From Oscillospiraceae bacterium (GTDB taxonomy: Bacteria; Bacillota; Clostridia; Oscillospirales; JAAYXM01): a stretch of 64,000 nt of DNA. The translations under genes were made by a program, and so were the position numbers. The notes beneath the pieces were generated by a model. The model was not told the DNA's origin. It did not search any database and was given only the letters and a program-made list of their open reading frames with translations. This document shows, one piece after another, positions 8,693-58,599 of the stretch. The DNA lies in contig JAFYPW010000036.1 in the NCBI GenBank assembly GCA_017559985.1, positions 23,295 to 87,294 of the forward strand. Reading direction: 5' to 3'. How positions within the stretch are numbered: position 1 is the first letter of the stretch; each line of letters starts with the position of its first letter.

Positions 8693-9805
8693 TCATACAA
8701 GTTTTGCTTTTGCGACCGAAATAAATTCTGAAACTTCTTCTTCGGTTGAAAAGCGTGAAAGGCTTATTCTGACAGCGCTTCCGATAAGCCTTTCCGGAAC
8801 ATTTAATGCTCTTAAAACGTGGCTTTTCTTTCCGCGGCTGCAAGCAGAGCCTGCCGAGATATATATCCCGTCCTCTTCAAGAATTCGCATCACAACTTCG
8901 GACGGATATTTTGTAAAGGATACGTTGAGGATATGCGGAGCGCGTGAGTCGGGTGCAAGCACGTGCACGTTCGGAAGTGTTTCAAGCTCCTGCTGCAACT
9001 TTTCTGAGAGGTCTGAAATTCTTCTGCGGTCATCGTCAAGTGTTTTGGTGCCCGCTCTTACCGCCGCGGCAAATGCCGCAATTTGCGCTGTTGGCTCTGT
9101 GCCCGAGCGAAGCCCTCGCTCCTGACCTCCGCCGAGAAGCTGCGGTGTGAGCCCGACACCCTGCTTTATATATATTGCGCCGATTCCCTTTGGTGCGTGT
9201 ATTTTGTGACCGGAAATGGAGATTATGTCCGCACCGTATTTTTTTGTATTTATCGGAATTTTCAAAAACGCCTGGACAGCGTCCGTGTGAATCAGGGTGT
9301 CGCGGTTTTTGAGCTTAACGGCATTTGATATCGCGGGGATATTCATCAGCGCGCCGATTTCATTGTTCACACTCATCACCGATACCATAAAGGTATCATC
9401 GCGCACGGCTGCTGCGACATCTCCGGGAAAGATTGTGCCGTTGTCGCGCGGAGAGATGTATGTAACCTCAAAGCCGTCAGCTTCAAGCTTTTTTGCCGTG
9501 GAAAGCACAGAGGGGTGCTCGTAGGCGGTTGTGACAAAATGGCGGCGCTTTCCGCTCCTTGCCGCGGCACCGAATATCGCAAGGTTATTGCTCTCCGTGC
9601 CGCAGGAGGTAAAGGTTATCTCACGCGGGGTGCAGGAAAGAGCCTCTGCTATATCCGCGCGTGCGGAGGAGAGCATATTTTCTGCTGAAATTCCGAGCCC
9701 GTGAAGGGAAGACGGGTTTCCGAAATCCTCACACATTGCTGCGGTCGCCGCGGCGGCGGCTTCGGGTATAACTTTTGTTGTGGCTGCGTTGTCAAAGTAT
9801 ATCAT
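8693..9805 (-). CDS. Cysteine desulfurase (NifS/IscS class, PLP-dependent)
   Basis: 370 aa. 'IYFDNAATT' N-terminus, PLP-lysine motif 'SGHKIHAPKGIGA', and active-site Cys loop 'SAGSACS'. Confidence 0.9.
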   Translation of the reverse strand: MIYFDNAATTKVIPEAAAAATAAMCEDFGNPSSLHGLGISAENMLSSARADIAEALSCTPREITFTSCGTESNNLAIFGAAARSGKRRHFVTTAYEHPSVLSTAKKLEADGFEVTYISPRDNGTIFPGDVAAAVRDDTFMVSVMSVNNEIGALMNIPAISNAVKLKNRDTLIHTDAVQAFLKIPINTKKYGADIISISGHKIHAPKGIGAIYIKQGVGLTPQLLGGGQERGLRSGTEPTAQIAAFAAAVRAGTKTLDDDRRRISDLSEKLQQELETLPNVHVLAPDSRAPHILNVSFTKYPSEVVMRILEEDGIYISAGSACSRGKKSHVLRALNVPERLIGSAVRISLSRFSTEEEVSEFISVAKAKLV

Positions 9806-30683: not shown

Positions 30684-31154
30684 TTATTCGATTGTAACCT
30701 TTTTCATAATAACAGGCTTTAAGGGTTTGTCGGAAAAGTCTGTATCAGAGGCCGCGATTTCGTCAACAACTTCAATGCCCTCAATGACGTGTCCGAATGC
30801 GGCGTAATTGCCGTCGAGGTGCGGGGAATCCTTATGCATAATGAAGAACTGGCTTCCTGCGGAGTTGGGCATCATTGAACGCGCCATGGAAATAACGCCG
30901 CGCGTGTGCTTTATCGGGTTGTCAATTCCGTTTGCACGGAATTCGCCCTTGATTGTGTGGCCCGGGCCGCCTGTACCTGTGCCGAGAGGGCAACCGCCCT
31001 GAATCATAAAGCCGGAAATAACGCGGTGGAAGGTAAGACCGTCGTAGAAACCTTCGCCCACAAGCTTTTCAAAATTCTCACAGGTTATGGGTGCTGCGTT
31101 TTTATCAAGCTCAATCTTAATCTTTTTGCCGTTTTCCATTTCAATAACTATCAT
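30684..31154 (-). CDS. ppiB: Peptidyl-prolyl cis-trans isomerase, cyclophilin type
   Basis: 156 aa with 'FHRVISGFMIQGGCP', 'GxxSMA' and 'SQFFI' cyclophilin motifs. Confidence 0.93.
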   Translation of the reverse strand: MIVIEMENGKKIKIELDKNAAPITCENFEKLVGEGFYDGLTFHRVISGFMIQGGCPLGTGTGGPGHTIKGEFRANGIDNPIKHTRGVISMARSMMPNSAGSQFFIMHKDSPHLDGNYAAFGHVIEGIEVVDEIAASDTDFSDKPLKPVIMKKVTIE

Positions 31155-31187: not shown

Positions 31188-31215
31188 ATTATACATCTTT
31201 TTTTGAAAATGTCAA
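31188..31215 (-). promoter_or_regulatory. Sigma-A-like promoter for ppiB (minus strand)
   Basis: On the minus strand: TTGACA (31215-31210), 16-nt spacer, TATAAT (31193-31188). Confidence 0.45.
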
Positions 31216-31670
31216 TTTGCAAGGCAGATATAAAGGTTTAAATATCCCGCAAAAAGAAGCCAGATCAGATAAGGGCTCTGAAGAAGTCCCGCGAGCTTAT
31301 CAATTCTCCAAAATTTTAGTGTCATAAGCGCGACTATTGCGATAAGAAGGACGAGCCACACAAAGGCAAAGCAGAATGCGCGCATATTAAAGAAAATTAT
31401 GCTCCAGAAAAAGTTTACGAACAGATTTATTCCGAAAACGCGGATAGCATCGGAATCCGGCTCACGAAGATAAACTCTTGCAGCACCGACACCCATAAGA
31501 ATGAAGAGGATGGTCCAGACTGTCGGAAAAACAATTGCAGGGGGAGAAAGCGGCGGCTTGTTGATGACCTCAAAGACATCCATGCTGTTTTGTGTAAGAA
31601 GAGCGGATAGTCCTCCGACGGCGAGAGAAATAAGGATAAAAGTGATGTAGGTTCTTGTTTTTTTACTCAT
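31212..31670 (-). CDS. tspO: TspO/MBR family tryptophan-rich sensory protein
   Basis: 152 aa with five TM segments. 'KPPLSPPAIVFPTVWTILF' and a W-rich C-terminal half are typical of TspO. Confidence 0.85.
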   Translation of the reverse strand: MSKKTRTYITFILISLAVGGLSALLTQNSMDVFEVINKPPLSPPAIVFPTVWTILFILMGVGAARVYLREPDSDAIRVFGINLFVNFFWSIIFFNMRAFCFAFVWLVLLIAIVALMTLKFWRIDKLAGLLQSPYLIWLLFAGYLNLYICLAN

Positions 31671-31716: not shown

Positions 31717-31761
31717 CCAAAGAAAAAGACGCCGTATGCCTTTCAGGCATTCAGCGTCTTT
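31717..31761 (-). terminator. Terminator after the RimK-like pair (overlaps the last codons of the CDS)
   Basis: Outer stem AAAGACGC (31725-31732) / GCGTCTTT (31754-31761) with inner ATGCC/GGCAT pairing, followed on the minus strand by TTTTCTTTGG. Confidence 0.55.
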
Positions 31762-32549
31762 ATAATATAATCGAGATACAGCGAAAGTATGTCGATGTCG
31801 TGCGTTTTATACAGCATACGCGCACCCACGACGTCTTCGATTTCATTTATGACGGGTTTTCCCTCGTGATACATAATATCAATTCCGCAAAGACCAAAAT
31901 CAAAAAGAGTGCAGACTTTGTGTATGAGAGCGGTTTCTTCGTCTGTCAGTACGGCTTTTGCTACCGTGCCACCGAGCGAAAAATTGCTGCGGAAATCGTC
32001 CTTTGCGGTTCGGAGAACGGCCGCGACGGGTTCGTTTGCGATAACGTAAACACGCATATCGCGTCCTGCTTCCGTTGCGAGGGGCTGAATGACATATTCG
32101 TCCGGCAAAATAGCCTCTCGCGCTTTTTTGTAATCCTCATCGTTTTCGATGAGGCGGACGTTCTTTCCGCCGTGACCCGAGCAAGGTTTTATGACTTTCG
32201 GATACTCTGTAATTTCCGGAGGCACATCCGTCGCCTTTGCTGAAATCCAGGGAATTACCGGTATGCCGTTTTTGTGGAGATATTCATAAGTTCTTGCTTT
32301 GTTGTTGCATATTGAAGAAACATGGAAGTTGTTGAATGTGCGGATGTTTCTGTCTTCTAAAAGCTTTGTTATGTCCGGGCGCATTGCACGAACTATTGCA
32401 AAATCGGGGTTCTCCGCGGGCAAGGGCTCTTCGTCGCATATGATAAGCGAAAAGTCAATCCCGCGCTCGCGCCCGTAGCGCATATGCATAGCTATAAAGT
32501 CATTATTGCGCTCTTTTCCTTCTCTCTCGTAAATAAGCCAAGCCTTCAA
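31743..32549 (-). CDS. RimK-family ATP-grasp ligase (paralog 2)
   Basis: 268 aa with a TTG start 7 nt after AGGTGA. ATP-grasp core 'YPKVIKPCSGHGGKNV', 'YVIQP', 'DFRSNFSLGGT' and 'GIDIMY..GKPVINEIE'. Confidence 0.8.
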   Translation of the reverse strand: MKAWLIYEREGKERNNDFIAMHMRYGRERGIDFSLIICDEEPLPAENPDFAIVRAMRPDITKLLEDRNIRTFNNFHVSSICNNKARTYEYLHKNGIPVIPWISAKATDVPPEITEYPKVIKPCSGHGGKNVRLIENDEDYKKAREAILPDEYVIQPLATEAGRDMRVYVIANEPVAAVLRTAKDDFRSNFSLGGTVAKAVLTDEETALIHKVCTLFDFGLCGIDIMYHEGKPVINEIEDVVGARMLYKTHDIDILSLYLDYIIKTLNA

Positions 32550-32556
32550 GATAAAA

Positions 32557-33420
32557 TCACCTGCATTTGTCGGTTATATGCTGTGCTATGAGATCTGCAA
32601 GGTCAACGCCTGTGCAGTCGTATGTGCTTTTAAAATGTGCATTTGAGTTAACCTCGCATATGAGCGGGCCGTCTTCACCAAAGAGAATGTCAATACCTGC
32701 AAAATCAAGCCTGAGTCGCTCCGTTGCCGCAAGTGCAAGTTCACATTCTGCATCAGTGGGGGAATACGGCAGAGTGCTTCCGCCGAGGGTAACATTGCTT
32801 CGGAAATCTCCGCATTTACTCTCACGGAGCATCGCGGCGCAAACCTTACCGCCGACTACATTTATGCGGATGTCGCGCCCGAAGCTCGTTTTTACAAGCT
32901 CCTGAAAAAGAAGCGGTGAGCGCTCGTGCTGCTTTATTATGTCGCGAAGCTCCGCCATATCGTGTGCAAGATATACCTGCGCACCGAAAGAGCCGAAAGA
33001 TTCCTTCACGACAAGCGGGAAGCCAAGGAGAGAAGTTACTTTGTCAAGGAAAGAAAGGTCTGAAAAGCCGATGTTCGGAAAGGTTTTCGGAGCAATGACG
33101 GTTTTTGGCATCGGAAGCCCTTTCAGTGCAAGGTGCATCTTCGCCTTGTCATCGCATTTTTCAATAGCATCTGCGCTGTTGAAAACGGGAACACCGGTTT
33201 CTTCTATCGCCCGAGCAAGGAGGATATCCTTATCCCAGAAAAGAACGAAACCGGGCTTTTCGGGAAACGGGATTTCCTCACTGACGGGATGCGCAAGGGA
33301 AGCATTTGTGCAGAGTAGGAGCCTTGCGCCGTGGGCATCAAATCCTTTTGAAAGGCGGGAGTAAATATCGGAAAATTTTCCGTTTTTTAAAAATTCGTTG
33401 ACAACAAGTATACCTGTCAT
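32557..33420 (-). CDS. RimK-family ATP-grasp ligase (paralog 1)
   Basis: 287 aa with 'FPLVVKESFGSFGAQV', 'FQELV', 'DFRSNVTLGGS' and 'GIDILFGEDGPLICEVNSN'. Its ATG lies 3 nt after the permease stop. Confidence 0.8.
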   Translation of the reverse strand: MTGILVVNEFLKNGKFSDIYSRLSKGFDAHGARLLLCTNASLAHPVSEEIPFPEKPGFVLFWDKDILLARAIEETGVPVFNSADAIEKCDDKAKMHLALKGLPMPKTVIAPKTFPNIGFSDLSFLDKVTSLLGFPLVVKESFGSFGAQVYLAHDMAELRDIIKQHERSPLLFQELVKTSFGRDIRINVVGGKVCAAMLRESKCGDFRSNVTLGGSTLPYSPTDAECELALAATERLRLDFAGIDILFGEDGPLICEVNSNAHFKSTYDCTGVDLADLIAQHITDKCR

Positions 33421-33423
33421 GGT

Positions 33424-34695
33424 CTAGCACCACAACGCCCAGACGAGGATATAACCTGCAAGAACTGCACAGAGTGTGAAAGGAATACCGATTCTGAAAA
33501 AGTCGCGGTTTTTGACTTCATATCCCGCATTTCGCAAAATGCCGATACCTGTAATGTTTGCAGATGCGCCGATGGGAGTGAGGTTTCCGCCGAGTGTTGC
33601 GCCGACAAGAAGTCCGAAAGCCAGAAGGTGAGGCTCGCAGCCTATCTGAGGTGCGATGCTTGCAACAACGGGGAGCATTGCCGCAACGTAGGGTATATTA
33701 TCAATAAACGCGGAGAGAAGAACCGATGCCCATACTATAAGAGTGTATATTACAAACGGATTGCCACCGCCTATTTTTACAAAGAATTCGCTGATTGCCT
33801 TTATAACACCAAGCTCTTCGATACCTGCGATGACAACGAAAAGACCTGCGAGGAGACCGAGTGTATAAAAGTCAATTTCTTTGAAAACTTCTTTGAAAAT
33901 CCCACGGTTCTTTTTGAGAATGAGCTCGCGGAAAATGCCTATAAACATAAGTGCTACGCAGATATATCCGTTTGTTTCCGCGGGTTTGAGCTCTGCCGGG
34001 ATAAACGATGCGATGATGAGAAGAACGATTGTGCCGACGAGAAGAACCGTAGGGAAGAAATCCTTCACCTCTGTCTTTGTGGAAACGGAAATCGGTGCGG
34101 TTTCCTTCCTGAAAAGGAAGAGGAGGATGCAGGCGGAGGCAAGTGCGCCTACCTGGACAACCCAGAAAAGACCGGGACGGCCTGCATACCAGAAGAAGTC
34201 TAAAAAGTTCATTTCAAGCTCGCCTGCAAGCATAATCGAGGTTGTGTCACCCACGAGCGTTGCCGCGCCCTGGAGGTTTGAGGAAACAGCGATTGAAATG
34301 ATAATCGGAACAGGGGATATTTTGAGCTTCTTTGCAATGTCGAGTGCAACGGGGGCAATCATAAGAACGGTTGCCACATTATCGACAAAAGCAGAAACTA
34401 TACCTGTAAAAAGAGCAAGACAAACGATAGCCCATTTTACATTCGGAACCTTTTCGATGATGAAATCGGAAAGTCTGTCGGGCATTTTGGACTGGATGAA
34501 AAGATAAACCGTGCCCATCGTGCCGGCAATCATCATAAGAACGTTCCAGTCGATGGCATAGAAGACCTCGGGAAGACTGAATTTTGCGATGATTGCAAAA
34601 ACAACAGCTGCGGCTATCGCTATGTACGGACGGAACTTCTGGAATGAAAGCAGAAGAACATAGGTGATTGCAAAAATTATAAGTGCGGGAAGCAT
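33424..34695 (-). CDS. ArsB/NhaD-superfamily (CitMHS/SLC13-like) anion permease
   Basis: 423 aa, polytopic with two-fold internal organisation. 'TLVGDTTSIMLA' and 'ATLGGNLTPIGASANI' hairpin-type motifs are typical of this superfamily. Confidence 0.78.
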   Translation of the reverse strand: MLPALIIFAITYVLLLSFQKFRPYIAIAAAVVFAIIAKFSLPEVFYAIDWNVLMMIAGTMGTVYLFIQSKMPDRLSDFIIEKVPNVKWAIVCLALFTGIVSAFVDNVATVLMIAPVALDIAKKLKISPVPIIISIAVSSNLQGAATLVGDTTSIMLAGELEMNFLDFFWYAGRPGLFWVVQVGALASACILLFLFRKETAPISVSTKTEVKDFFPTVLLVGTIVLLIIASFIPAELKPAETNGYICVALMFIGIFRELILKKNRGIFKEVFKEIDFYTLGLLAGLFVVIAGIEELGVIKAISEFFVKIGGGNPFVIYTLIVWASVLLSAFIDNIPYVAAMLPVVASIAPQIGCEPHLLAFGLLVGATLGGNLTPIGASANITGIGILRNAGYEVKNRDFFRIGIPFTLCAVLAGYILVWALWC

Positions 34696-34721
34696 AGTGA
34701 AACAACTCCTTAAAAAATTAA

Positions 34722-35123
34722 TTACTTATCTATTATTATTTGAAAAAGCGCATTTAAGCGGTCATATCTTCCGAGAAGAAAAAGGTAACCCCAGAGCGCT
34801 TCGAATGCGGTCGCTGTGTGGTATGTTGCAGGGTCGGAATGCTTGGGGATTGTGTTGACTTTTGCATTTCTCCCGCGGAGAAAAACTGCGTTTTCTTCAT
34901 CCGTGAGATGTGAAAGAATTTTTTCTGCGGCTTCCTTCTGTGCTTTTGCGGAAACGGACATGACCGTGCTTTTGTGAAGCTCGCCCGCCTTTCTTATTCC
35001 GCGTTTGCAGAGGTTGCTGCGCACCATCAGCTCAAACGCGGCATCGCCTATATGTGCGAGAGCGGTGGCACTCATTTCAAAAATTTCCTCTTTTGAAAGG
35101 GTTGAATGTAAAAAGTCCTGCAT
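34722..35123 (-). CDS. mrnC: Mini-ribonuclease 3
   Basis: Start set at 'MQDFL' (35123). The RNase III signature-like 'ALAHIGDAAFELMVR' and small size with no dsRBD are typical of Mini-III. Confidence 0.82.
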   Translation of the reverse strand: MQDFLHSTLSKEEIFEMSATALAHIGDAAFELMVRSNLCKRGIRKAGELHKSTVMSVSAKAQKEAAEKILSHLTDEENAVFLRGRNAKVNTIPKHSDPATYHTATAFEALWGYLFLLGRYDRLNALFQIIIDK

Positions 35124-35227
35124 ACTGTCTCCTCTATAAAAAATATACATAACAATTCTATGTCAGAATAATAAAAAAGTCAATCCATATAATAGGAGAA
35201 AGACAAAAAAGATTTAACCGGAAAAAG

Positions 35228-54065: not shown

Positions 54066-54097
54066 CACAGCACCGCCGTCGGTGCTGCGTTTTTTTT
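54066..54097. terminator. Bidirectional terminator between addA (+) and the CDF gene (-)
   Basis: Stem CAGCACCG (54068-54075) / CGGTGCTG (54080-54087), flanked by A7 and T8 runs. Confidence 0.75.
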
Positions 54098-55262
54098 ACA
54101 TAACCGTTCTGTCTATTGTGGGCTTTACTATGAATGACTGGTCGATTGCGGAAACCGCTGTTATGACCATATCGGAGACGATGCTGTCCGGCGCGGGGTG
54201 TGCAATAGGGACAACAACGTCAAACAGGATATTTTTCAAATCACCGTTTTTTATAACTCGGAAGTCGTGCATTGTGAAAGAAGCATCAAGCTTTTTTAAA
54301 GCATCGGCAACAAGTTTTGAAATACGCCGGACTTCTTCGTTTTCCACTTCGAGCGGGTCGAGATGAATTGTGATTTCAATTCCGAGCTTTTTCGAAAGCT
54401 CGCTCTCAATGCGGTCTATAAGCTCGTGGCTTTCGAGAATGTCTTCCGAAGAGGAAACTTCCGCATGGAGAGATGCGAAAACCTTTCCGGGCCCGTATTC
54501 GTGAACTATCAGGTCGTGTATACCGAGGATTTTGTCGTGTCCCGCGACCGTGCTGTATATGTCTCTGACAAGGTCCGGGTTTGGGGTTGTACCGAGAAGC
54601 GGGGTTAACGTGTCGCGGATTATTTTTATTCCCGACCACATAACAAATGCACTCACAAGAATGCCGATATATCCGTCAAGCGGGAAAGCTGTAAATTTTG
54701 AAAGAACTATTGAGATGAGCGTGACTGTTGTGGAGAACGCATCGGATATGCTGTCTGTTGAAACTGCCTTTATCGTCGAAGAGTTGATTTTCGTGCCGAG
54801 CTTTTTGTAAAAGAAGGCAAGCCAGAGCTTTGTTAAAACAGAGACGGCAAGACCTGTCGTTACAAAAACGGAGAAATTTGAGCTTCCCCTGGAAAAGATT
54901 TTTAAAAGTGACGTTTTTCCCACCTCAAAGCCTGCAAGAAGAACGAGGAAGGCGACGACAAGGCCGCAGATGTATTCAATCCTTCCGTGACCGAAAGGGT
55001 GTTCGCGGTCAGCAGGTTTCGAAGAAAGCTTAAACCCGATGATTGTAACGATGTTTGAAGCACAGTCGGATAAATTGTTGACGGCATCTGCCGTAACGGC
55101 AATGCTGTTTGCAAAGATGCCGAGTATGAATTTAAGCGCGGCAAGTATAATGTTGAATACAATGCCGACGGTGCTTGAAACAACACCGTAACGCGTTCTT
55201 ACAGTCGGGTTTGTGACATCTTCATAATTCTTTATGAAAAGGCGGATGATAAAATTTGTCAT
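54096..55262 (-). CDS. Cation diffusion facilitator (CDF) family divalent-metal efflux transporter
   Basis: 388 aa with six TM segments, 'SIAVTADAVNNLSD', 'HPFGHGRIEY', and a cytoplasmic C-terminal domain ('IHDLIVHEYG', 'FTMHDFR'). Confidence 0.88.
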   Translation of the reverse strand: MTNFIIRLFIKNYEDVTNPTVRTRYGVVSSTVGIVFNIILAALKFILGIFANSIAVTADAVNNLSDCASNIVTIIGFKLSSKPADREHPFGHGRIEYICGLVVAFLVLLAGFEVGKTSLLKIFSRGSSNFSVFVTTGLAVSVLTKLWLAFFYKKLGTKINSSTIKAVSTDSISDAFSTTVTLISIVLSKFTAFPLDGYIGILVSAFVMWSGIKIIRDTLTPLLGTTPNPDLVRDIYSTVAGHDKILGIHDLIVHEYGPGKVFASLHAEVSSSEDILESHELIDRIESELSKKLGIEITIHLDPLEVENEEVRRISKLVADALKKLDASFTMHDFRVIKNGDLKNILFDVVVPIAHPAPDSIVSDMVITAVSAIDQSFIVKPTIDRTVM

Positions 55263-55289
55263 CTGAAAATATCATATCCTAACAAAAAG

Positions 55290-56648
55290 TTATTTTACCA
55301 AAACTGCACGAAGATGGGGGAAAACATCCCTGCGCGAAAGTTTGCCCGGATTGATTGTAAAGGAATAGGTGGGGGCAAGGCTTCGCAAAAATGCAGAGAG
55401 AAGCTCTCCCGTAACCGTTGTTTTATACGAAAGCTTTTCGCTGTTATCACAGTTGATTATACCGAGCTCTGCTGCTTTGCAGAAAGCTATGAAATACGGA
55501 TGGTTCTCGCCCACACCGTATCTTTTTGCACACTCAGCCAAAAGAGCACCTGTCTCAAAGCCGGAATCAACAAATTTGCGGTAGGACGTGAGAATATCCT
55601 GCGGCGGAGTGCAGGTTACAACCAACTCACCAAATGTCATGGCACGCTCGGGGTGAAGAGTGTTGTTCTTGTAAGCGACGGTGAAACCTGCGTTTGCGAG
55701 AGCCTGTGCGTCTTCGTTCACACAGTCGGCAAACTGCGAAAGCGAAAGAAGCTCGGATACAGAAATGACATCATAGCCGTGTTTTTTGAGCAGGTCGAGC
55801 TGAAGCGGAAGAGCTTCCGCAACGGGCGTATGGCGTGACATACTGTACCCGTCCTTCTGGAAAATTATCTGTCCGTTCAAAGAATCGGGGTCTTCGGAGA
55901 GGGCACGCGAAATCGGCTCTACCATAGCATCGATGTCTTTTTTGAAATCGCCCGTCGAGGGAAGCCATCCGCCGCCGTCAAAGCTTGCGGCGAGGTAGTT
56001 ATACCCTGCATAGCGATACGCATCGTAAGATGTCTTGCCGTCCGGGATTTTGTCAACATAGTGCGGAGGGCGCGAAAGGCGCATTTTATAACCGTGTTCT
56101 TCAAGGAGAAGGCTGTCAAGCTCCATAATGTCGGAGATGACTTCGTGAATATTGTTAAAACACGCGCGGGCACCGTAAACAAGCTTTAAATGGCCAAAGA
56201 GAATGTGGCGGTAGCCGTGGTTTGTGATTTCGTGACCGCCTGAAAGTATGCGGGAGATAAGGTCGGACTTGTTTTTTGCACCTGCGCACAAATCGCGGTT
56301 TATGTCCGGGTAGTGGTCATACCTGACGCCACCCCAGGAAAAAGAGCCGTGGACACCCGCCTCGTCGGGATAGTTGTGCTCTGTCGTGCCTATAACATCA
56401 AATGTGCCCTTTGCTCCGAATTTTTCGAGTGTCTTCAAGAGGTGGAGCGTTAAGCCGTCATCGGAAATCTTCGGGTTTGTCTCCGTGTCGGTAGGACCGT
56501 CGTCAAATGTCATTGCACATACACGACGGTCAGTGAGCGGGAAAACGCGTTCAATGCGGCGAACCGGTGTGATGTATTCACAGTCGCGGCTTTTCTGGTA
56601 TTCTTTGAGAATGTGTTTTGCACGTCTTGCAAGGTCGTAAAGTATCAT
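55290..56648 (-). CDS. NodB-fold polysaccharide/carbohydrate deacetylase-family protein with an extra C-terminal domain of about 150 aa; no signal peptide
   Basis: 452 aa with NodB motifs 'CAMTFDDGP', 'GHEITNHGYRH' and 'RPPHY'. The N-terminus 'MILYDLARRAKHILKEY' is not a signal sequence. Confidence 0.8.
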   Translation of the reverse strand: MILYDLARRAKHILKEYQKSRDCEYITPVRRIERVFPLTDRRVCAMTFDDGPTDTETNPKISDDGLTLHLLKTLEKFGAKGTFDVIGTTEHNYPDEAGVHGSFSWGGVRYDHYPDINRDLCAGAKNKSDLISRILSGGHEITNHGYRHILFGHLKLVYGARACFNNIHEVISDIMELDSLLLEEHGYKMRLSRPPHYVDKIPDGKTSYDAYRYAGYNYLAASFDGGGWLPSTGDFKKDIDAMVEPISRALSEDPDSLNGQIIFQKDGYSMSRHTPVAEALPLQLDLLKKHGYDVISVSELLSLSQFADCVNEDAQALANAGFTVAYKNNTLHPERAMTFGELVVTCTPPQDILTSYRKFVDSGFETGALLAECAKRYGVGENHPYFIAFCKAAELGIINCDNSEKLSYKTTVTGELLSAFLRSLAPTYSFTINPGKLSRRDVFPHLRAVLVK

Positions 56649-57436
56649 TATTTATTCTCCTCCGGCGTTGTGTCTATATAATGACCTTCATATTTTTTGC
56701 AGAAAACAGATTTTAATAACATATATAGGTGAACAAAGTAACTTTTTAAAAGTCTGCCGTAAAGTTTTTTGCAACGGTACATATATCTTTTCCCGCGCAA
56801 AACGTCAAACGGAGATGCAGCACCCGCAAAAACGCGCCCGCGACCGGAAAGAAGCTCGGCCTTGAGTTTGTCTTCAAAATCGGGCTCGGACATAGCATAT
56901 TCCCGCAGGTCGCACTCCCAGAAGGTTGTGCCAACTTCTTCGGGAATATGCGCATCGCTTCCTGCTGAAAAAGGCAATCCCAATTTTTTACACAGTTTTA
57001 AAGCGTCACGGTTTGCGTTTGTCTTTCGTGAGTGTACGACTCGTGAATTGAAAATTTCTATTCCGTCGATTTCGTCAAAAAGGGCATCGGGACGGGGACG
57101 GAAAGGAGAAAACGGATGCGCAAGAAAAACCAGCGCGCCCTGGTCATGTGCCGCTTTTACGATATCGCGCCAGTAAAACCTGCCGTATTCGTCACGCGAG
57201 AGGGCTTCGTTTACGTGCTCTTTCTGGAAATAGACTATAAGATGTCCGACATCTGTTGAGAATTCACAGGCGTGGATTATGTAGAAGTTTTCGCGTTCGC
57301 GATGGTGGTGGAACGCGTTGTGGTCAGCGATGGCAACGCCTGAAAGTCCTGCGCGGCGGGCGGCTTCCACAAGGTCGTCAGACCTCATCCTTGAATCATA
57401 TGATAGATTTGTGTGAACGTGTAAATCGAATTTCAT
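56648..57436 (-). CDS. PHP-domain metal-dependent phosphoesterase
   Basis: 262 aa with 'MKFDLHVHTNLSYDS', 'AIADHN', 'LAHPF' and 'GSDAH' PHP metal-ligand motifs. Its TAA overlaps the deacetylase ATG (TAATG). Confidence 0.85.
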   Translation of the reverse strand: MKFDLHVHTNLSYDSRMRSDDLVEAARRAGLSGVAIADHNAFHHHRERENFYIIHACEFSTDVGHLIVYFQKEHVNEALSRDEYGRFYWRDIVKAAHDQGALVFLAHPFSPFRPRPDALFDEIDGIEIFNSRVVHSRKTNANRDALKLCKKLGLPFSAGSDAHIPEEVGTTFWECDLREYAMSEPDFEDKLKAELLSGRGRVFAGAASPFDVLRGKRYMYRCKKLYGRLLKSYFVHLYMLLKSVFCKKYEGHYIDTTPEENK

Positions 57437-57441
57437 ATAAA

Positions 57442-58599
57442 TTACCTCACGATACTGTCGGTTTTCTTTAACGCCTGCTTAAAGTATTGGAGTGATGAGC
57501 GGATGTCGGATATATCAAAAACACCGTCGGAAACGAAAGGGTTTAAAAGTCCCGAAAGAAAAGAAACGGCAAATTTCAATTTATGCTCACTCTTTTTCAG
57601 ATATGCAGGAAAAGAGAGAAGGTCCTGAATTATAAATCTCATCTTGTGGCCTGTTTTGTAGCTTGGCGAGAACGAAGAAAAAGGCTTTGCAAGCTCTCCG
57701 CGGGCGGCGCGGTAAAGGGCAAATGGAATGTTGCAGCCTGAATTTGGCGCGAGGGCAGAGCTTCCCCAGAAACGTGGGTTGATTTCCATAAGGTAAAATC
57801 CGGTTTCGGGAGTGCCTTTAAACTCAACCATTGCAACGCCTTCCCAATGCAATGTGCGCAAAAGCTTTATCGCATATTCTGCAAGTTGCGGAGAGTCAAC
57901 GCTCTCACAGAAGCACGACGGACCGCCGCTTGACGGATATTCGCGTATTCTGCGGTGGCAGAAAACTTCGAGCGGCTCGGAGTTTTTGTCAAAGACGCAG
58001 GAAACGCCGTAGCCATCGCCGGTGATATATTGCTGAACGAGAATTTCCTGACCGTATTGTTCAAAAACCGTATAGGTTTTTATGAATTCTTCCTTTGAGG
58101 AGACAATGCTGTATCTCTTTTCGGGCGGAAGCCCCAGCATCTCACCGAGCGGGAGCTTTATTACAGAAGGGTAAGTTATTCTCTGTGAAAGGGAGAGGAC
58201 ACTCTCGCCGTCTGCCTTGAATGTTGTTTCCGGAACGGGAACGCCTGCTTCTTTTGCAAAGGGGATGAGGCGCGATTTGTTGTTTGCAAGTTCGATTGAT
58301 GAGAACGGCGGCAGCGCGCAATCACAAAAGCCGAGAACTTCGTCACGGTTTTCACACAGCGTAAGGAGGGTGGAAATGCCGACCGGTATCACAACCGGGC
58401 GCTCATCAAGATCAGAACACAAAGACGAAAGCTCTGAAAGGAACAGTGCGGTATCTGTATCTGCGTCGGGGAGCAGAACATTCCTTTTTGAATATTTAGA
58501 ATAAAAACCCAATGCCGCCTTTGTATCACATACGTCTCTCTCGGTGCAAACAACAGGGACACCGCTCTTTCCGAGAGCACGGATGGCAGGAAGACTCAT
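57442..58599 (-). CDS. ATP-grasp ligase (COG3919-like 'predicted ATP-grasp enzyme'); the true start is probably upstream at a non-canonical codon (ATT at 58635)
   Basis: 385 aa from the first ATG. ATP-grasp core 'YPSVIKLP', 'LVQQYITG' and 'VAMVEFK..FYLMEINPRFWGS'. The frame stays open to the TGA at 58650-58648 and encodes 'INSAIVTDVRYR' with no ATG/GTG/TTG. Confidence 0.8.
   Translation of the reverse strand: MSLPAIRALGKSGVPVVCTERDVCDTKAALGFYSKYSKRNVLLPDADTDTALFLSELSSLCSDLDERPVVIPVGISTLLTLCENRDEVLGFCDCALPPFSSIELANNKSRLIPFAKEAGVPVPETTFKADGESVLSLSQRITYPSVIKLPLGEMLGLPPEKRYSIVSSKEEFIKTYTVFEQYGQEILVQQYITGDGYGVSCVFDKNSEPLEVFCHRRIREYPSSGGPSCFCESVDSPQLAEYAIKLLRTLHWEGVAMVEFKGTPETGFYLMEINPRFWGSSALAPNSGCNIPFALYRAARGELAKPFSSFSPSYKTGHKMRFIIQDLLSFPAYLKKSEHKLKFAVSFLSGLLNPFVSDGVFDISDIRSSLQYFKQALKKTDSIVR

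What the first reader, a model, noticed from the sequence alone, without database searches (positions are those of the whole stretch)
31743..34695. Two tandem RimK-type ATP-grasp ligases translationally coupled to an ArsB/NhaD-type anion permease
Seen: the order on the minus strand is permease (423 aa), then RimK-like 1 (287 aa), then RimK-like 2 (268 aa). The gaps are 3 nt and 7 nt, and each downstream start has an SD inside or just after the preceding gene. A hairpin terminator directly follows the last gene. Both ligases carry the RimK/LysX signature DFRSNxxLGG and are clearly diverged paralogs rather than a recent duplication. No lysW/argX-type carrier, ribosomal protein S6 gene or cofactor genes are nearby. 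Known: RimK-family enzymes add glutamate or aspartate to carboxylates. Examples are S6 poly-glutamylation, LysX, CofF/MptN cofactor tails, and mammalian RIMKLA/B making NAAG and beta-citrylglutamate. ArsB/NhaD/CitMHS permeases move di- and tricarboxylates and other anions. Inference: two sequential ligations plus a dedicated anion permease fits a small acidic peptide or carboxylate-amino-acid conjugate (osmolyte, chelator or signal). Either the substrate is imported or the product exported. I could not match this arrangement to a characterised bacterial system.
Basis: partly seen in the sequence, partly recalled or inferred. Interest (0 to 1): 0.55.

Follow-up and report, generated by a model that had tools for sequence, protein, structure and literature searches.

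The report
Paired RimK-like ligases with optional permease
Two different RimK-type ATP-dependent ligases form a conserved, uncharacterised gene pair in hundreds of Clostridia species; the anion permease in front of them here is an add-on found in only one Oscillospiraceae lineage, so the product is unknown but is most likely a small amino-acid conjugate.

Summary
On the minus strand lie a 423-aa CitMHS/ArsB-superfamily permease, a 287-aa RimK-family ligase and a 268-aa RimK-like ligase with a TTG start. The gaps are 3 and 7 nt, there are SD-like sequences, and a strong hairpin terminator follows. The conserved unit is the ligase pair, not the trio. A ligase 1 relative occurs in at least 597 species-level Clostridia genomes, and a ligase 2 homolog sits next to it in 74 of 77 informative loci. 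The permease is present in 2 of 80 genome loci. Elsewhere it is a stand-alone gene. Within the window's own clade (ligase 1 at least 59% identical), the three-gene block does recur with different flanking genes, in roughly half of the relatives. Two clade members that lack it carry an Asp-Al_Ex transporter at the same position. Neither ligase reaches the equivalog cutoffs for RimK, LysX, MptN or CofF. Both keep the catalytic motifs but have different acceptor-pocket residues. No carrier protein or S6 gene is nearby. The best reading is two different ATP-dependent amide ligations that make a small conjugate, with lineage-specific transporters. No function has been shown. I rate this a moderately interesting, uncharacterised variant of a known enzyme family.

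The parts
33424..34695 (-). Permease, 423 aa, about 9 predicted TM segments, ion-transporter superfamily (CitMHS/DASS/ArsB-like). It is a lineage-specific accessory gene of the ligase pair.
   Evidence: ORF. Pfam CitMHS 3.9e-56; DctM and ArsB weak. No NCBIfam family reaches its cutoff: DASS 77 bits against 198.6, ArsB 44 against 457, NhaD 30 against 80. Nearest solved structure is VcINDY at E about 1e-8. Linked to the pair only in L001, L008, L009, L100 and L103. Stand-alone elsewhere.
34706..34711 (-). Shine-Dalgarno AAGGAG, 10 nt upstream of the permease ATG and 10 nt after the stop of the upstream mini-RNase III gene.
   Evidence: Read from the sequence. No promoter-like site was found in the 26-nt gap.
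32557..33420 (-). Ligase 1, 287 aa, RimK-family ATP-grasp. This is the 'WDKD / CEVNSNAHF' subfamily, with invariant N8, F10, W62, D63, D65, K139, R185, E256 and N258.
   Evidence: TIGR00768 rimK_fam 184 bits against a cutoff of 143, while all equivalogs are below cutoff. for the invariant columns. AF2 pLDDT 93.5. Foldseek finds ArgX/LysX/RimK at TM 0.81-0.85.
32557..32562 (-). SD-like AGGTGA overlapping the ligase 1 stop codon, 7 nt upstream of the ligase 2 TTG start.
   Evidence: Read from the sequence.
31743..32549 (-). Ligase 2, 268 aa (TTG start), a diverged RimK/ArgX-like ATP-grasp. This is the 'R54 / NEIEDVVGxRMLY' subfamily, with invariant Y7, N15, R54, K121, R166, E236 and E238.
   Evidence: rimK_fam 125 bits, below the 143 cutoff. 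for the invariant columns. AF2 pLDDT 94.6, with residues 2-7 forming beta-strand 1. Foldseek finds ArgX at TM 0.83. A homolog lies directly downstream of ligase 1 in 74 of 77 informative loci.
31717..31761 (-). Intrinsic terminator: a 16-bp interrupted hairpin followed by a U-run, with the ligase 2 stop codon (31743-31745) at the tip of the hairpin.
   Evidence: dG -24.7 kcal/mol, z -5.48, 0 of 200 shuffles as stable.
34722..35150 (-). Upstream mini-RNase III-like gene (142 aa). It is probably co-transcribed with the block in this genome and is not functionally part of it.
   Evidence: Pfam Ribonuclease_3 3.4e-20. Only 26 nt separate it from the permease. In L007 it abuts ligase 1 directly with no permease. 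In L100 and L103 the block has other upstream genes.
35155..35183 (-). Promoter-like site (TTGACT, 17 nt, TAGAAT) upstream of the mini-RNase III gene. This is the only good candidate promoter for the whole transcription unit.
   Evidence: 10 of 12 consensus matches. This is a consensus match only, not evidence of function.

Best explanation
The core is a two-gene cassette encoding two diverged RimK/LysX-type ATP-grasp carboxylate-amine ligases. It is conserved as an adjacent pair, in the same order, across Clostridia (Oscillospiraceae, Christensenellales/Limiplasma, Lachnospiraceae).

Both enzymes keep the residues needed to bind ATP-Mg and to form an acyl-phosphate. This is shown by motif conservation, not by assay. 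Their N-domain acceptor pockets differ. Ligase 2 keeps the Arg that sits at RimK's substrate-binding R64 position. Ligase 1 has replaced it with an invariant W-D-K-D motif.

I infer that the two enzymes catalyse two different amide-bond formations in the same pathway. Each would activate a carboxylate with ATP and join it to an amino group, most probably that of Glu or Asp. The product would be a small amino-acid conjugate, not a modified protein.

The pathway has no fixed partners. Different lineages have attached different accessory genes to it. In the window's Oscillospiraceae lineage, a generic ion-transporter-superfamily anion permease was captured directly upstream and is co-transcribed and probably translationally coupled. 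Its inferred role is to import the carboxylate or amino-acid substrate or to export the product.
For: Pair conservation:
- At least 597 species-level genomes encode a ligase 1 relative.
- A ligase 2 homolog lies directly downstream in 74 of 77 informative loci.

Catalytic motifs are conserved in both families:
- Lys of the ATP-binding strand, the Gly-rich loop, GRDxR, DFRSN..GG, GxD, and E-x-N (E-x-E in ligase 2).

Both models are confident and have the RimK/LysX/ArgX fold.

The acceptor pockets differ:
- Ligase 2 R54 aligns with ligase 1 W62.
- This is the position of RimK R64, which contacts the poly-Glu chain (PMC10092738).

No carrier or target protein is encoded nearby:
- There is no conserved small ORF between the ligases.
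- No LysW or S6 homolog was found.

Accessory genes point to small-molecule chemistry and transport:
- Limiplasma-type loci carry an FGase-like amidohydrolase (17 loci), a DegT-family PLP aminotransferase (16), DUF308 (10), an aldo/keto reductase (5) and MatE (8). They carry no glycosyltransferases.
- An EamA transporter lies between the two ligases in Herbinix.
- An Asp-Al_Ex transporter lies divergently upstream in L102 and L011.

Permease link within the close clade:
- The permease-ligase 1-ligase 2 block is kept with -3 to +7 nt spacing in L001, L008, L009, L100 and L103.
- It has three different sets of flanking genes, at 60-100% ligase 1 identity.
- By matching contig lengths, 13 of 16 long-contig members of the window's subclade carry it.
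Against: No substrate, product or activity has been shown for any member.

The nearest structurally characterised relatives (RimK, LysX, ArgX) all act on the C-terminal Glu of a protein, which favours a protein target a priori.

Most pair loci have only housekeeping neighbours and no transporter or tailoring genes: 33 have ftsK/spoIIIE upstream and 25 have formate-THF ligase downstream.

The permease is absent from more than 95% of pair loci. It has been lost repeatedly within its own clade. It is a stand-alone gene elsewhere.

Outside the close clade, transporter adjacency is not clearly above what chance would give: about 7 of 160 neighbour slots.

Ligase 2 has E-x-E instead of the usual E-x-N metal motif, so its activity is assumed, not shown.

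The contig-length proxy for linkage is indirect.
Confidence: 0.4

Rival explanations
1. The pair is a protein- or peptide-modifying system that works like RimK or LysX/ArgX. One or both enzymes would add Glu (or another amino acid) to the C-terminus of a protein encoded elsewhere in the genome, possibly acting as a hetero-oligomer. On this reading the permease is irrelevant.
For: The best fold matches for both proteins are ArgX-LysW, LysX and RimK (including the RimK-RpsF complex entry 5zk6), at TM 0.8-0.85. Most pair loci have housekeeping-type neighbours and no pathway genes. The RimK family is known to form tetramers (PMC10092738), so a mixed oligomer of two paralogs is conceivable.
Against: - RimK's poly-Glu-contacting N-domain residues (S7, R8, S14, R64, S68) lie in a region of ligase 1 that does not align with RimK. 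That region carries a different invariant motif instead: N8, F10 and W62-D-K-D65.
- No LysW-like or other conserved small ORF is present near the pair in about 90 loci.
- Scores are far below the RimK and LysX equivalog cutoffs.
- Small-molecule-type accessory genes occur in several lineages.
Confidence: 0.25
2. The permease is a functionally unrelated passenger. A common stand-alone transporter gene inserted between the mini-RNase III gene and the ligase pair in one ancestor. It has stayed there by descent and shares a transcript without sharing a pathway.
For: - It is absent from 78 of 80 genome loci.
- L007 shows the 'empty site', with mrnC abutting ligase 1.
- Homologs at 63-68% identity are solitary genes in unrelated contexts in Thermoclostridium, Anaerocolumna and Bacilli MAGs.
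- The linkage has been lost repeatedly within the clade.
- The permease is more conserved than the ligases, as expected for a gene with its own independent, general role.
Against: - The three-gene block survives rearrangements that changed both flanks (L100, L103).
- It keeps -3 to +7 nt spacing down to 60% ligase 1 identity.
- Two clade members that lack it carry another anion or amino-acid transporter family (Asp-Al_Ex) at the same position.
- In Herbinix an EamA transporter sits between the ligases.
- A recurrent but non-homologous transporter association is hard to explain by pure chance.
Confidence: 0.3
3. Only one ligation is performed. Ligase 2, with its altered E-x-E metal motif, would be a regulatory or scaffolding paralog of ligase 1 in an obligate heteromer.
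For: Adjacency is strict and the order is fixed. The genes often overlap (ATGA-type overlaps in L062, L074 and L086). Ligase 2 deviates from the canonical E-x-N motif.
Against: Ligase 2 conserves every other catalytic element: K121, the GHGG loop, R166, the nearly invariant DFRSN motif with invariant N189 and G193-G194, D224 and E236. An acidic residue at the third metal-ligand position is compatible with metal binding. The invariant residues cluster at the active site, as expected for an active enzyme.
Confidence: 0.12
4. The pair decorates a cell-envelope glycopolymer or amino sugar with amino acids, for example by amidating a uronic acid or acylating an amino sugar.
For: A DegT/WecE-type sugar aminotransferase lies directly downstream in 16 loci. 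Some family members carry precomputed hits to PF14397, 'sugar-transfer associated ATP-grasp'.
Against: No glycosyltransferase, flippase or nucleotide-sugar genes occur in those clusters. The neighbours are an aldo/keto reductase, DUF308 and MatE. The PF14397 hits lie under stronger RimK hits, and for the window's ligase 2 the score is below the gathering threshold (23.6 against 31.4 bits). The association is restricted to one lineage.
Confidence: 0.07

Closest known systems
RimK (ribosomal protein S6:L-glutamate ligase; E. coli 4iwx/5zct, Pseudomonas 7qyr/7qys)
   Same: Same ATP-grasp fold and size (TM 0.81-0.85 for ligase 1). It is the best PDB sequence hit for ligase 1 (4e-25). The shared core motifs include DFRSN..GG, the DIR arginine (RimK R189 = ligase 1 R185) and E-x-N (N262 = N258).
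   Different: Only 26-28% identity. NCBIfam RimK equivalog score is 99 bits against a cutoff of 331. The N-terminal domain is not alignable by sequence, and RimK's poly-Glu contacts S7/R8/S14/R64/S68 are replaced by N8/F10 and W62-D-K-D65. This system has two different paralogs in a pair instead of a homotetramer of one. No rimA/rimB or S6 gene is nearby.
LysX / ArgX (amino-group carrier protein ligases of the LysW pathway; 1uc8, 3vpd, 3vpb, 5k2m)
   Same: Top Foldseek hits for both proteins. ArgX is the best PDB sequence hit for ligase 2, nearly full length (1.3e-15). In Sulfolobus, two paralogous ligases (LysX and ArgX) serve related steps, which gives a precedent for paired RimK-type paralogs.
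   Different: No LysW-type zinc-ribbon carrier and no lysine or arginine biosynthesis genes are nearby. The LysX equivalog scores 132 and 92 bits against a cutoff of 275.6. Identity is 20-26%.
MptN and CofF (cofactor-tail alpha-L-glutamate ligases) and mammalian RIMKLA/RIMKLB (NAAG and beta-citrylglutamate synthases)
   Same: These are RimK-family enzymes that ligate Glu to a small-molecule carboxylate. That is the kind of chemistry proposed here. This comparison rests on family knowledge and NCBIfam names.
   Different: MptN scores 102 and 73 bits against a cutoff of 350, and CofF scores 60 and 43 against 300. The cofactors concerned (methanopterin, F420) are not expected in Clostridia.
VcINDY / DASS and CitMHS / ArsB transporters (ion-transporter superfamily)
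   Same: The permease has the CitMHS Pfam domain over its full length. Its nearest solved structure is the Na+/dicarboxylate symporter VcINDY. The size and number of TM segments are similar.
   Different: E is only about 1e-8 to VcINDY. All NCBIfam subfamily models are far below their cutoffs. The names given by sources are inconsistent: 'SLC13 family permease', 'TRAP transporter large permease', 'arsenic transporter' and 'NhaD'. The substrate is unknown.

Membership tests
ATP-grasp superfamily / RimK family (PF08443, TIGR00768) | Significant match to the family profile over the ATP-grasp domain | tested here: met
   Ligase 1: PF08443 2e-37, and TIGR00768 184 bits against a cutoff of 143. Ligase 2: PF08443 5e-24 (85 bits against a cutoff of 21), but TIGR00768 125 bits is below 143. 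Ligase 1 is therefore a member by both models, and ligase 2 by Pfam only.
ATP-grasp superfamily / RimK family (PF08443, TIGR00768) | Three-domain ATP-grasp fold with conserved ATP/Mg-binding residues (Lys, Gly-rich loop, Asp and Glu-x-Asn metal ligands, catalytic Arg) | tested here: met
   AF2 models have pLDDT 93.5 and 94.6. Foldseek TM is 0.8-0.85 to RimK, LysX and ArgX. Invariant in ligase 1: K139, G143-S-F-G146, R185, D244, E256, N258. Invariant in ligase 2: K121, G127-G128, R166, D224, E236, with E238 in place of Asn.
RimK proper (S6:Glu ligase, NF007764) | Score at or above the equivalog cutoff | tested here: not met
   99 bits (ligase 1) and 55 bits (ligase 2) against a cutoff of 331.
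RimK proper (S6:Glu ligase, NF007764) | Poly-Glu/S6-tail-contacting residues S7, R8, S14, R64, S68 (RimK of P. aeruginosa; PMC10092738) | tested here: not met
   The ligase 1 N-domain does not align to RimK by sequence; the match starts at residue 68-70. At the corresponding N-terminal strand and at the R64 position it has V7/N8 and W62-D-K-D65. Ligase 2 does keep an Arg (R54) at the R64-equivalent column. The mapping comes from profile alignment, not from superposing coordinates.
RimK proper (S6:Glu ligase, NF007764) | Glutamylation of ribosomal protein S6 | not testable with these tools
   No rpsF in the window or loci. This needs biochemistry or proteomics.
LysX/ArgX (TIGR02144) | Score at or above the equivalog cutoff | tested here: not met
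   132 and 92 bits against a cutoff of 275.6.
LysX/ArgX (TIGR02144) | Partner LysW-type carrier protein and AAA/Arg pathway genes in the neighbourhood | tested here: not met
   No LysW-like hit was found (best E 0.35, insignificant) in the window or in about 95 loci. No conserved small ORF lies between or beside the ligases. The neighbours are unrelated.
MptN (NF040720) / CofF (TIGR04443) | Score at or above the equivalog cutoff | tested here: not met
   MptN: 102 and 73 bits against a cutoff of 350. CofF: 60 and 43 bits against a cutoff of 300.
RIMKLA/RIMKLB (NAAG and beta-citrylglutamate synthases) | Orthology to the mammalian enzymes, and ligation of Glu to N-acetyl-Asp or citrate | not tested
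An ML tree including them is listed under next steps.
CitMHS citrate:metal symporters (PF03600 sensu stricto) | Pfam domain match | tested here: met
   PF03600 3.9e-56, residues 12-365 covering the whole 336-position profile. The Pfam family is broad, so this does not establish citrate as the substrate.
ArsB arsenite pumps / NhaD antiporters / DASS symporters / TRAP DctM | Score at or above the subfamily or equivalog cutoff | tested here: not met
   ArsB 44 bits against 457. NhaD 30 against 80. DASS 77 against 198.6. DctM 29 against 268. No TRAP DctP or DctQ genes are adjacent, so the source name 'TRAP transporter large permease' is a misnomer.
   Met within one clade: L008, L009, L100 and L103, and about half of relatives at 60% identity or more by the contig-length proxy. 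Not met in 78 of 80 species-level genome loci.

The most novel reading that the evidence does not exclude
The ligase pair makes a so-far-undescribed small amino-acid conjugate that is common to a large part of the gut and anaerobe-associated Clostridia. Examples would be a di- or tri-acid peptide serving as an osmolyte, chelator, cofactor tail or redox buffer. Different lineages would have independently bolted different transporters (CitMHS-type, Asp-Al_Ex, EamA, MatE) and tailoring enzymes onto the same two-enzyme core.
Probability: 0.25. Interest if true: 0.7.

Novelty: new variant of a known kind. Interest (0 to 1): 0.4.

Why it matters
RimK-family ligases are known from a handful of systems: S6 glutamylation, LysW-mediated lysine and arginine synthesis, methanogen cofactor tails, and mammalian NAAG and beta-citrylglutamate. 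This work defines a further, uncharacterised branch made of two obligately paired paralogs. It is present in at least 597 species-level genomes of Clostridia, including abundant gut families, and it is annotated only generically.

If the pair makes a small metabolite, that would be a widespread, unrecognised product of anaerobic Firmicutes, and cultured carriers are available for testing. If it modifies a protein, it would be a new post-translational modification system in Gram-positive anaerobes.

There is also an annotation point. The permease is not a defining part of the system. Its source names ('TRAP large permease', 'arsenic transporter') are unsupported. The public gene call for ligase 2 is 20 residues too short.

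Tried and rejected
- **Riboswitch or leader RNA as a substrate clue.** There were no Rfam hits at gathering threshold in the window. Upstream of stand-alone permease homologs the only hits were unrelated tRNAs.
- **Locally encoded carrier or precursor peptide.** The small ORFs in the ligase 1-ligase 2 gaps of 17 loci are unrelated to each other and lack acidic C-termini. LysW and S6 probes found nothing significant.
- **Universal conserved neighbour of the pair.** None exists. Clustering of about 900 neighbouring ORFs gave only lineage-specific sets. I judged the Lachnospiraceae set (tepA, ylzJ, ftsK/spoIIIE, HAD, formate-THF ligase) to be housekeeping synteny.
- **The FGase-like protein.** It has only a sub-threshold Pfam hit (26.3 against 28.9 bits) and no PDB relative by profile search, so it remains a weak lead.
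- **Metagenome scan for close relatives.** It returned only 8 distant or truncated loci and did not help. I used contig look-ups and a contig-length proxy instead.
- **YheC/YheD spore-coat ATP-grasp identity.** Rejected. The window's proteins do not hit PF14398, and those proteins are much longer.
- **Defence-system membership.** There were no PADLOC hits.
- **Literature.** Six full-text searches found no description of this pair or of a RimK-plus-CitMHS arrangement. The Iyer et al. 2009 amidoligase survey could not be retrieved, so I cannot exclude that it mentions this family.
- **TspO and cyclophilin genes downstream of ligase 2.** I considered whether they belong to the unit and rejected it. 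A strong terminator intervenes, and L009, L101 and L103 lack them.

Full report
**1. Observation**

- permease, 33424..34695 (423 aa, ATG)
- ligase 1, 32557..33420 (287 aa, ATG)
- ligase 2, 31743..32549 (268 aa, TTG)

The intergenic gaps are 3 nt and 7 nt. Reading the sequence gives these SD-like sites:
- a good AAGGAG, 10 nt before the permease ATG
- a weak GGTG inside the last permease codons, 7 nt before the ligase 1 ATG
- an AGGTGA that overlaps the ligase 1 stop codon, 7 nt before the ligase 2 TTG

The hairpin after ligase 2 is a strong terminator candidate. It has 16 pairs and a U-run, dG -24.7 kcal/mol and z -5.5, and none of 200 shuffles folds as well. The ligase 2 stop codon sits at its tip. 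The simple pattern scan missed it.

Pfam assigns the permease to CitMHS (3.9e-56), with weak ArsB and DctM hits. It assigns both ligases to the RimK ATP-grasp domain (2e-37 and 5e-24). Both ligases carry DFRSNxxLGG. They are 24-27% identical to each other over their full length.

The public gene call starts ligase 2 at an internal ATG, giving 248 aa.
- Homologs are 260-281 aa and align from residue 1-4.
- Y7 and N15 are invariant.
- Residues 2-7 form beta-strand 1 of a confident model.

**2. What the unit really is**

The window is part of a metagenomic Oscillospiraceae-type scaffold. Ligase 1 belongs to a large family named only 'RimK family alpha-L-glutamate ligase'.

A scan of one genome per species found at least 597 genomes with a relative. 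All the listed ones are Clostridia: Oscillospiraceae, Candidatus Limiplasma, and Lachnospiraceae such as Herbinix hemicellulosilytica and Mobilisporobacter senegalensis.

In the 80 loci fetched, a ligase 2 homolog lies immediately downstream of ligase 1, in the same order, in 74. The other six break down as follows:
- Three are cut by contig ends.
- Three truly lack ligase 2.

In two of the 74, other genes have been inserted between the pair:
- an EamA transporter in Herbinix
- a BlaI/BlaR-LCP cassette in Mobilisporobacter

The permease is present in only 2 of those 80 loci (L008, L009). In L007, which is 72% identical in ligase 1, the mini-RNase III gene abuts ligase 1 directly. The conserved unit is therefore the ligase pair.

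**3. The permease**

Its homologs at 63-68% identity are widespread in Clostridia and Bacilli MAGs. Sources name them inconsistently. In Thermoclostridium stercorarium, an Anaerocolumna-type genome and a Bacilli MAG, the homolog is a solitary gene in unrelated contexts, with no ATP-grasp gene nearby. No riboswitch precedes it.

Within the window's own clade the picture is different:
- The permease-ligase 1-ligase 2 block recurs in L100 (ligase 1 60% identical; upstream gene heparinase-like) and in L103 (74%; HTH gene upstream, Fe-S/NADH-dehydrogenase genes downstream).
- The permease-ligase 1 spacing stays between -3 and +7 nt.
- I matched contig lengths between the ligase 1 and permease hit lists as a proxy and placed the results on a neighbour-joining tree. 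By this measure 13 of 16 long-contig members of the window's subclade are linked. None of the 9 in the sister clade is linked. One basal member (L100, verified) is linked.
- This pattern fits an early capture followed by repeated loss.

Members without the CitMHS gene have other membrane proteins at the same position:
- an Asp-Al_Ex transporter, divergent, in L102 and L011
- DUF2238 in L101

**4. Family placement of the ligases**

Ligase 1 passes only the broad rimK_fam model (184 bits against a cutoff of 143). Ligase 2 falls below it (125 bits). The functional equivalogs are all far below their cutoffs:

| Equivalog | Ligase 1 (bits) | Ligase 2 (bits) | Cutoff |
|---|---|---|---|
| LysX | 132 | 92 | 275.6 |
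| MptN | 102 | 73 | 350 |
| RimK | 99 | 55 | 331 |
| CofF | 60 | 43 | 300 |

The closest solved proteins are RimK for ligase 1 (4e-25) and ArgX for ligase 2 (1e-15). AF2 models are confident, with pLDDT 93.5 and 94.6. They superpose on ArgX, LysX and RimK at TM 0.8-0.85, with 20-28% identity and nothing closer.

The catalytic core is intact in both families. Ligase 2 has E-x-E where the family usually has E-x-N.

In P. aeruginosa RimK, the bound poly-Glu chain contacts S7, R8, S14, R64, S68, R189 and N262 (PMC10092738). In ligase 1, R189 and N262 are conserved as R185 and N258. The N-domain of ligase 1 does not align with RimK. It carries a different invariant set: N8, F10 and W62-D-K-D65. The profile-profile alignment puts ligase 2's invariant R54 opposite ligase 1's W62. 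The two paralogs therefore differ at a position that binds the acceptor in RimK.

**5. Clues to function**

No carrier or target protein is encoded locally. The small ORFs in the ligase 1-ligase 2 gaps are not conserved.

No neighbour is universal. Lachnospiraceae-type loci show housekeeping synteny: tepA, ylzJ, ftsK/spoIIIE, HAD and formate-THF ligase.

In Limiplasma-type loci the pair is embedded in this gene order: FGase-like protein, ligase 1, ligase 2, DegT-family aminotransferase, DUF308, aldo/keto reductase. A MatE exporter lies nearby, and there are no glycosyltransferases. This looks like small-molecule metabolism with export. None of these genes is in the window.

The PADLOC search found nothing. 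Six literature searches found no description of the pair.

**6. Interpretation**

Shown:
- The gene anatomy, the terminator and the family membership.
- Conservation of the pair.
- The clade-restricted permease linkage.
- Non-membership in the characterised equivalog families.
- Absence of a local carrier gene.

Inferred:
- Both enzymes are active.
- They perform two different ligations in one pathway, because the pairing is obligate, the cores are intact and the acceptor pockets differ.
- The product is a small amino-acid conjugate, because accessory genes in several lineages are transporters and small-molecule enzymes and no protein partner is found.
- In this lineage the permease supplies a substrate or exports the product.

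My confidence in this composite is about 0.4.

The main rival is a RimK/LysX-like protein modification with the target encoded elsewhere (0.25). It rests on the fact that all structurally characterised neighbours act on protein C-termini. Separately, the permease may be a mere passenger (0.3).

**7. Novelty and score**

This is an uncharacterised, widespread variant of the RimK/LysX ligase theme. It consists of two obligately paired paralogs with no known partner. It is not a new kind of enzyme.

I score interest at 0.4. The most novel reading not excluded is an unknown common Clostridial metabolite made by this pair (probability about 0.25, interest 0.7 if true).

Noticed in passing
window 54096..58599 (minus strand): A second, unrelated ATP-grasp operon with abutting or overlapping genes. 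It runs from a 385-aa ATPgrasp_Ter (PF15632) protein (57442..58599), to a 262-aa PHP_C protein (56648..57436), to a 452-aa polysaccharide deacetylase (55290..56648), to a 388-aa cation-efflux (CDF) protein (54096..55262).
   Followed up: no
window 31743..32549: The public gene call for ligase 2 (248 aa, ATG at about 32489) is 20 residues too short. The TTG at 32549 restores conserved residues (Y7, N15) and beta-strand 1 of the fold.
   Followed up: yes
L041:7267-8136 (Herbinix hemicellulosilytica) and L075:7088-9452 (Mobilisporobacter senegalensis): In the two cultured carriers, foreign genes split the ligase pair. In Herbinix it is an EamA/DMT transporter. In Mobilisporobacter it is a BlaI-like repressor plus a BlaR-like protein with a C-terminal LCP-like region (that annotation is by eye from the translations, not scanned).
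   Followed up: partly
L003:6343-6987 and 16 other Limiplasma-type loci: A conserved 214-250 aa protein lies directly upstream of ligase 1. Its only match is a sub-threshold hit to N-formylglutamate amidohydrolase (PF05013, 26.3 against 28.9 bits), and it has no PDB relative by profile search. It has a strongly conserved SAPH...R..DDAN.D...DLHQ motif set and could be the hydrolase partner of the ligases.
   Followed up: partly
window 33424..34695 and homologs P0121-P0240: Public sources name this one permease family 'TRAP transporter large permease subunit', 'arsenic transporter', 'SLC13 family permease' and 'NhaD'. None of the corresponding NCBIfam models reaches its cutoff, and no TRAP partner genes are adjacent.
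   Followed up: yes
window 31212..31670 and 30684..31154 (minus strand): TspO/MBR and cyclophilin genes follow the ligase pair in most close relatives (L007, L008, L010, L011, L100, L102), but not in L009, L101 or L103. A strong terminator separates them from ligase 2 in the window.
   Followed up: partly
window 8693..9805 (minus strand) and the adjacent 75-aa gene: A class-V aminotransferase (Aminotran_5) lies next to a free-standing 75-aa PP-binding carrier protein, close to FeoA/FeoB. The pairing is unexplained.
   Followed up: no
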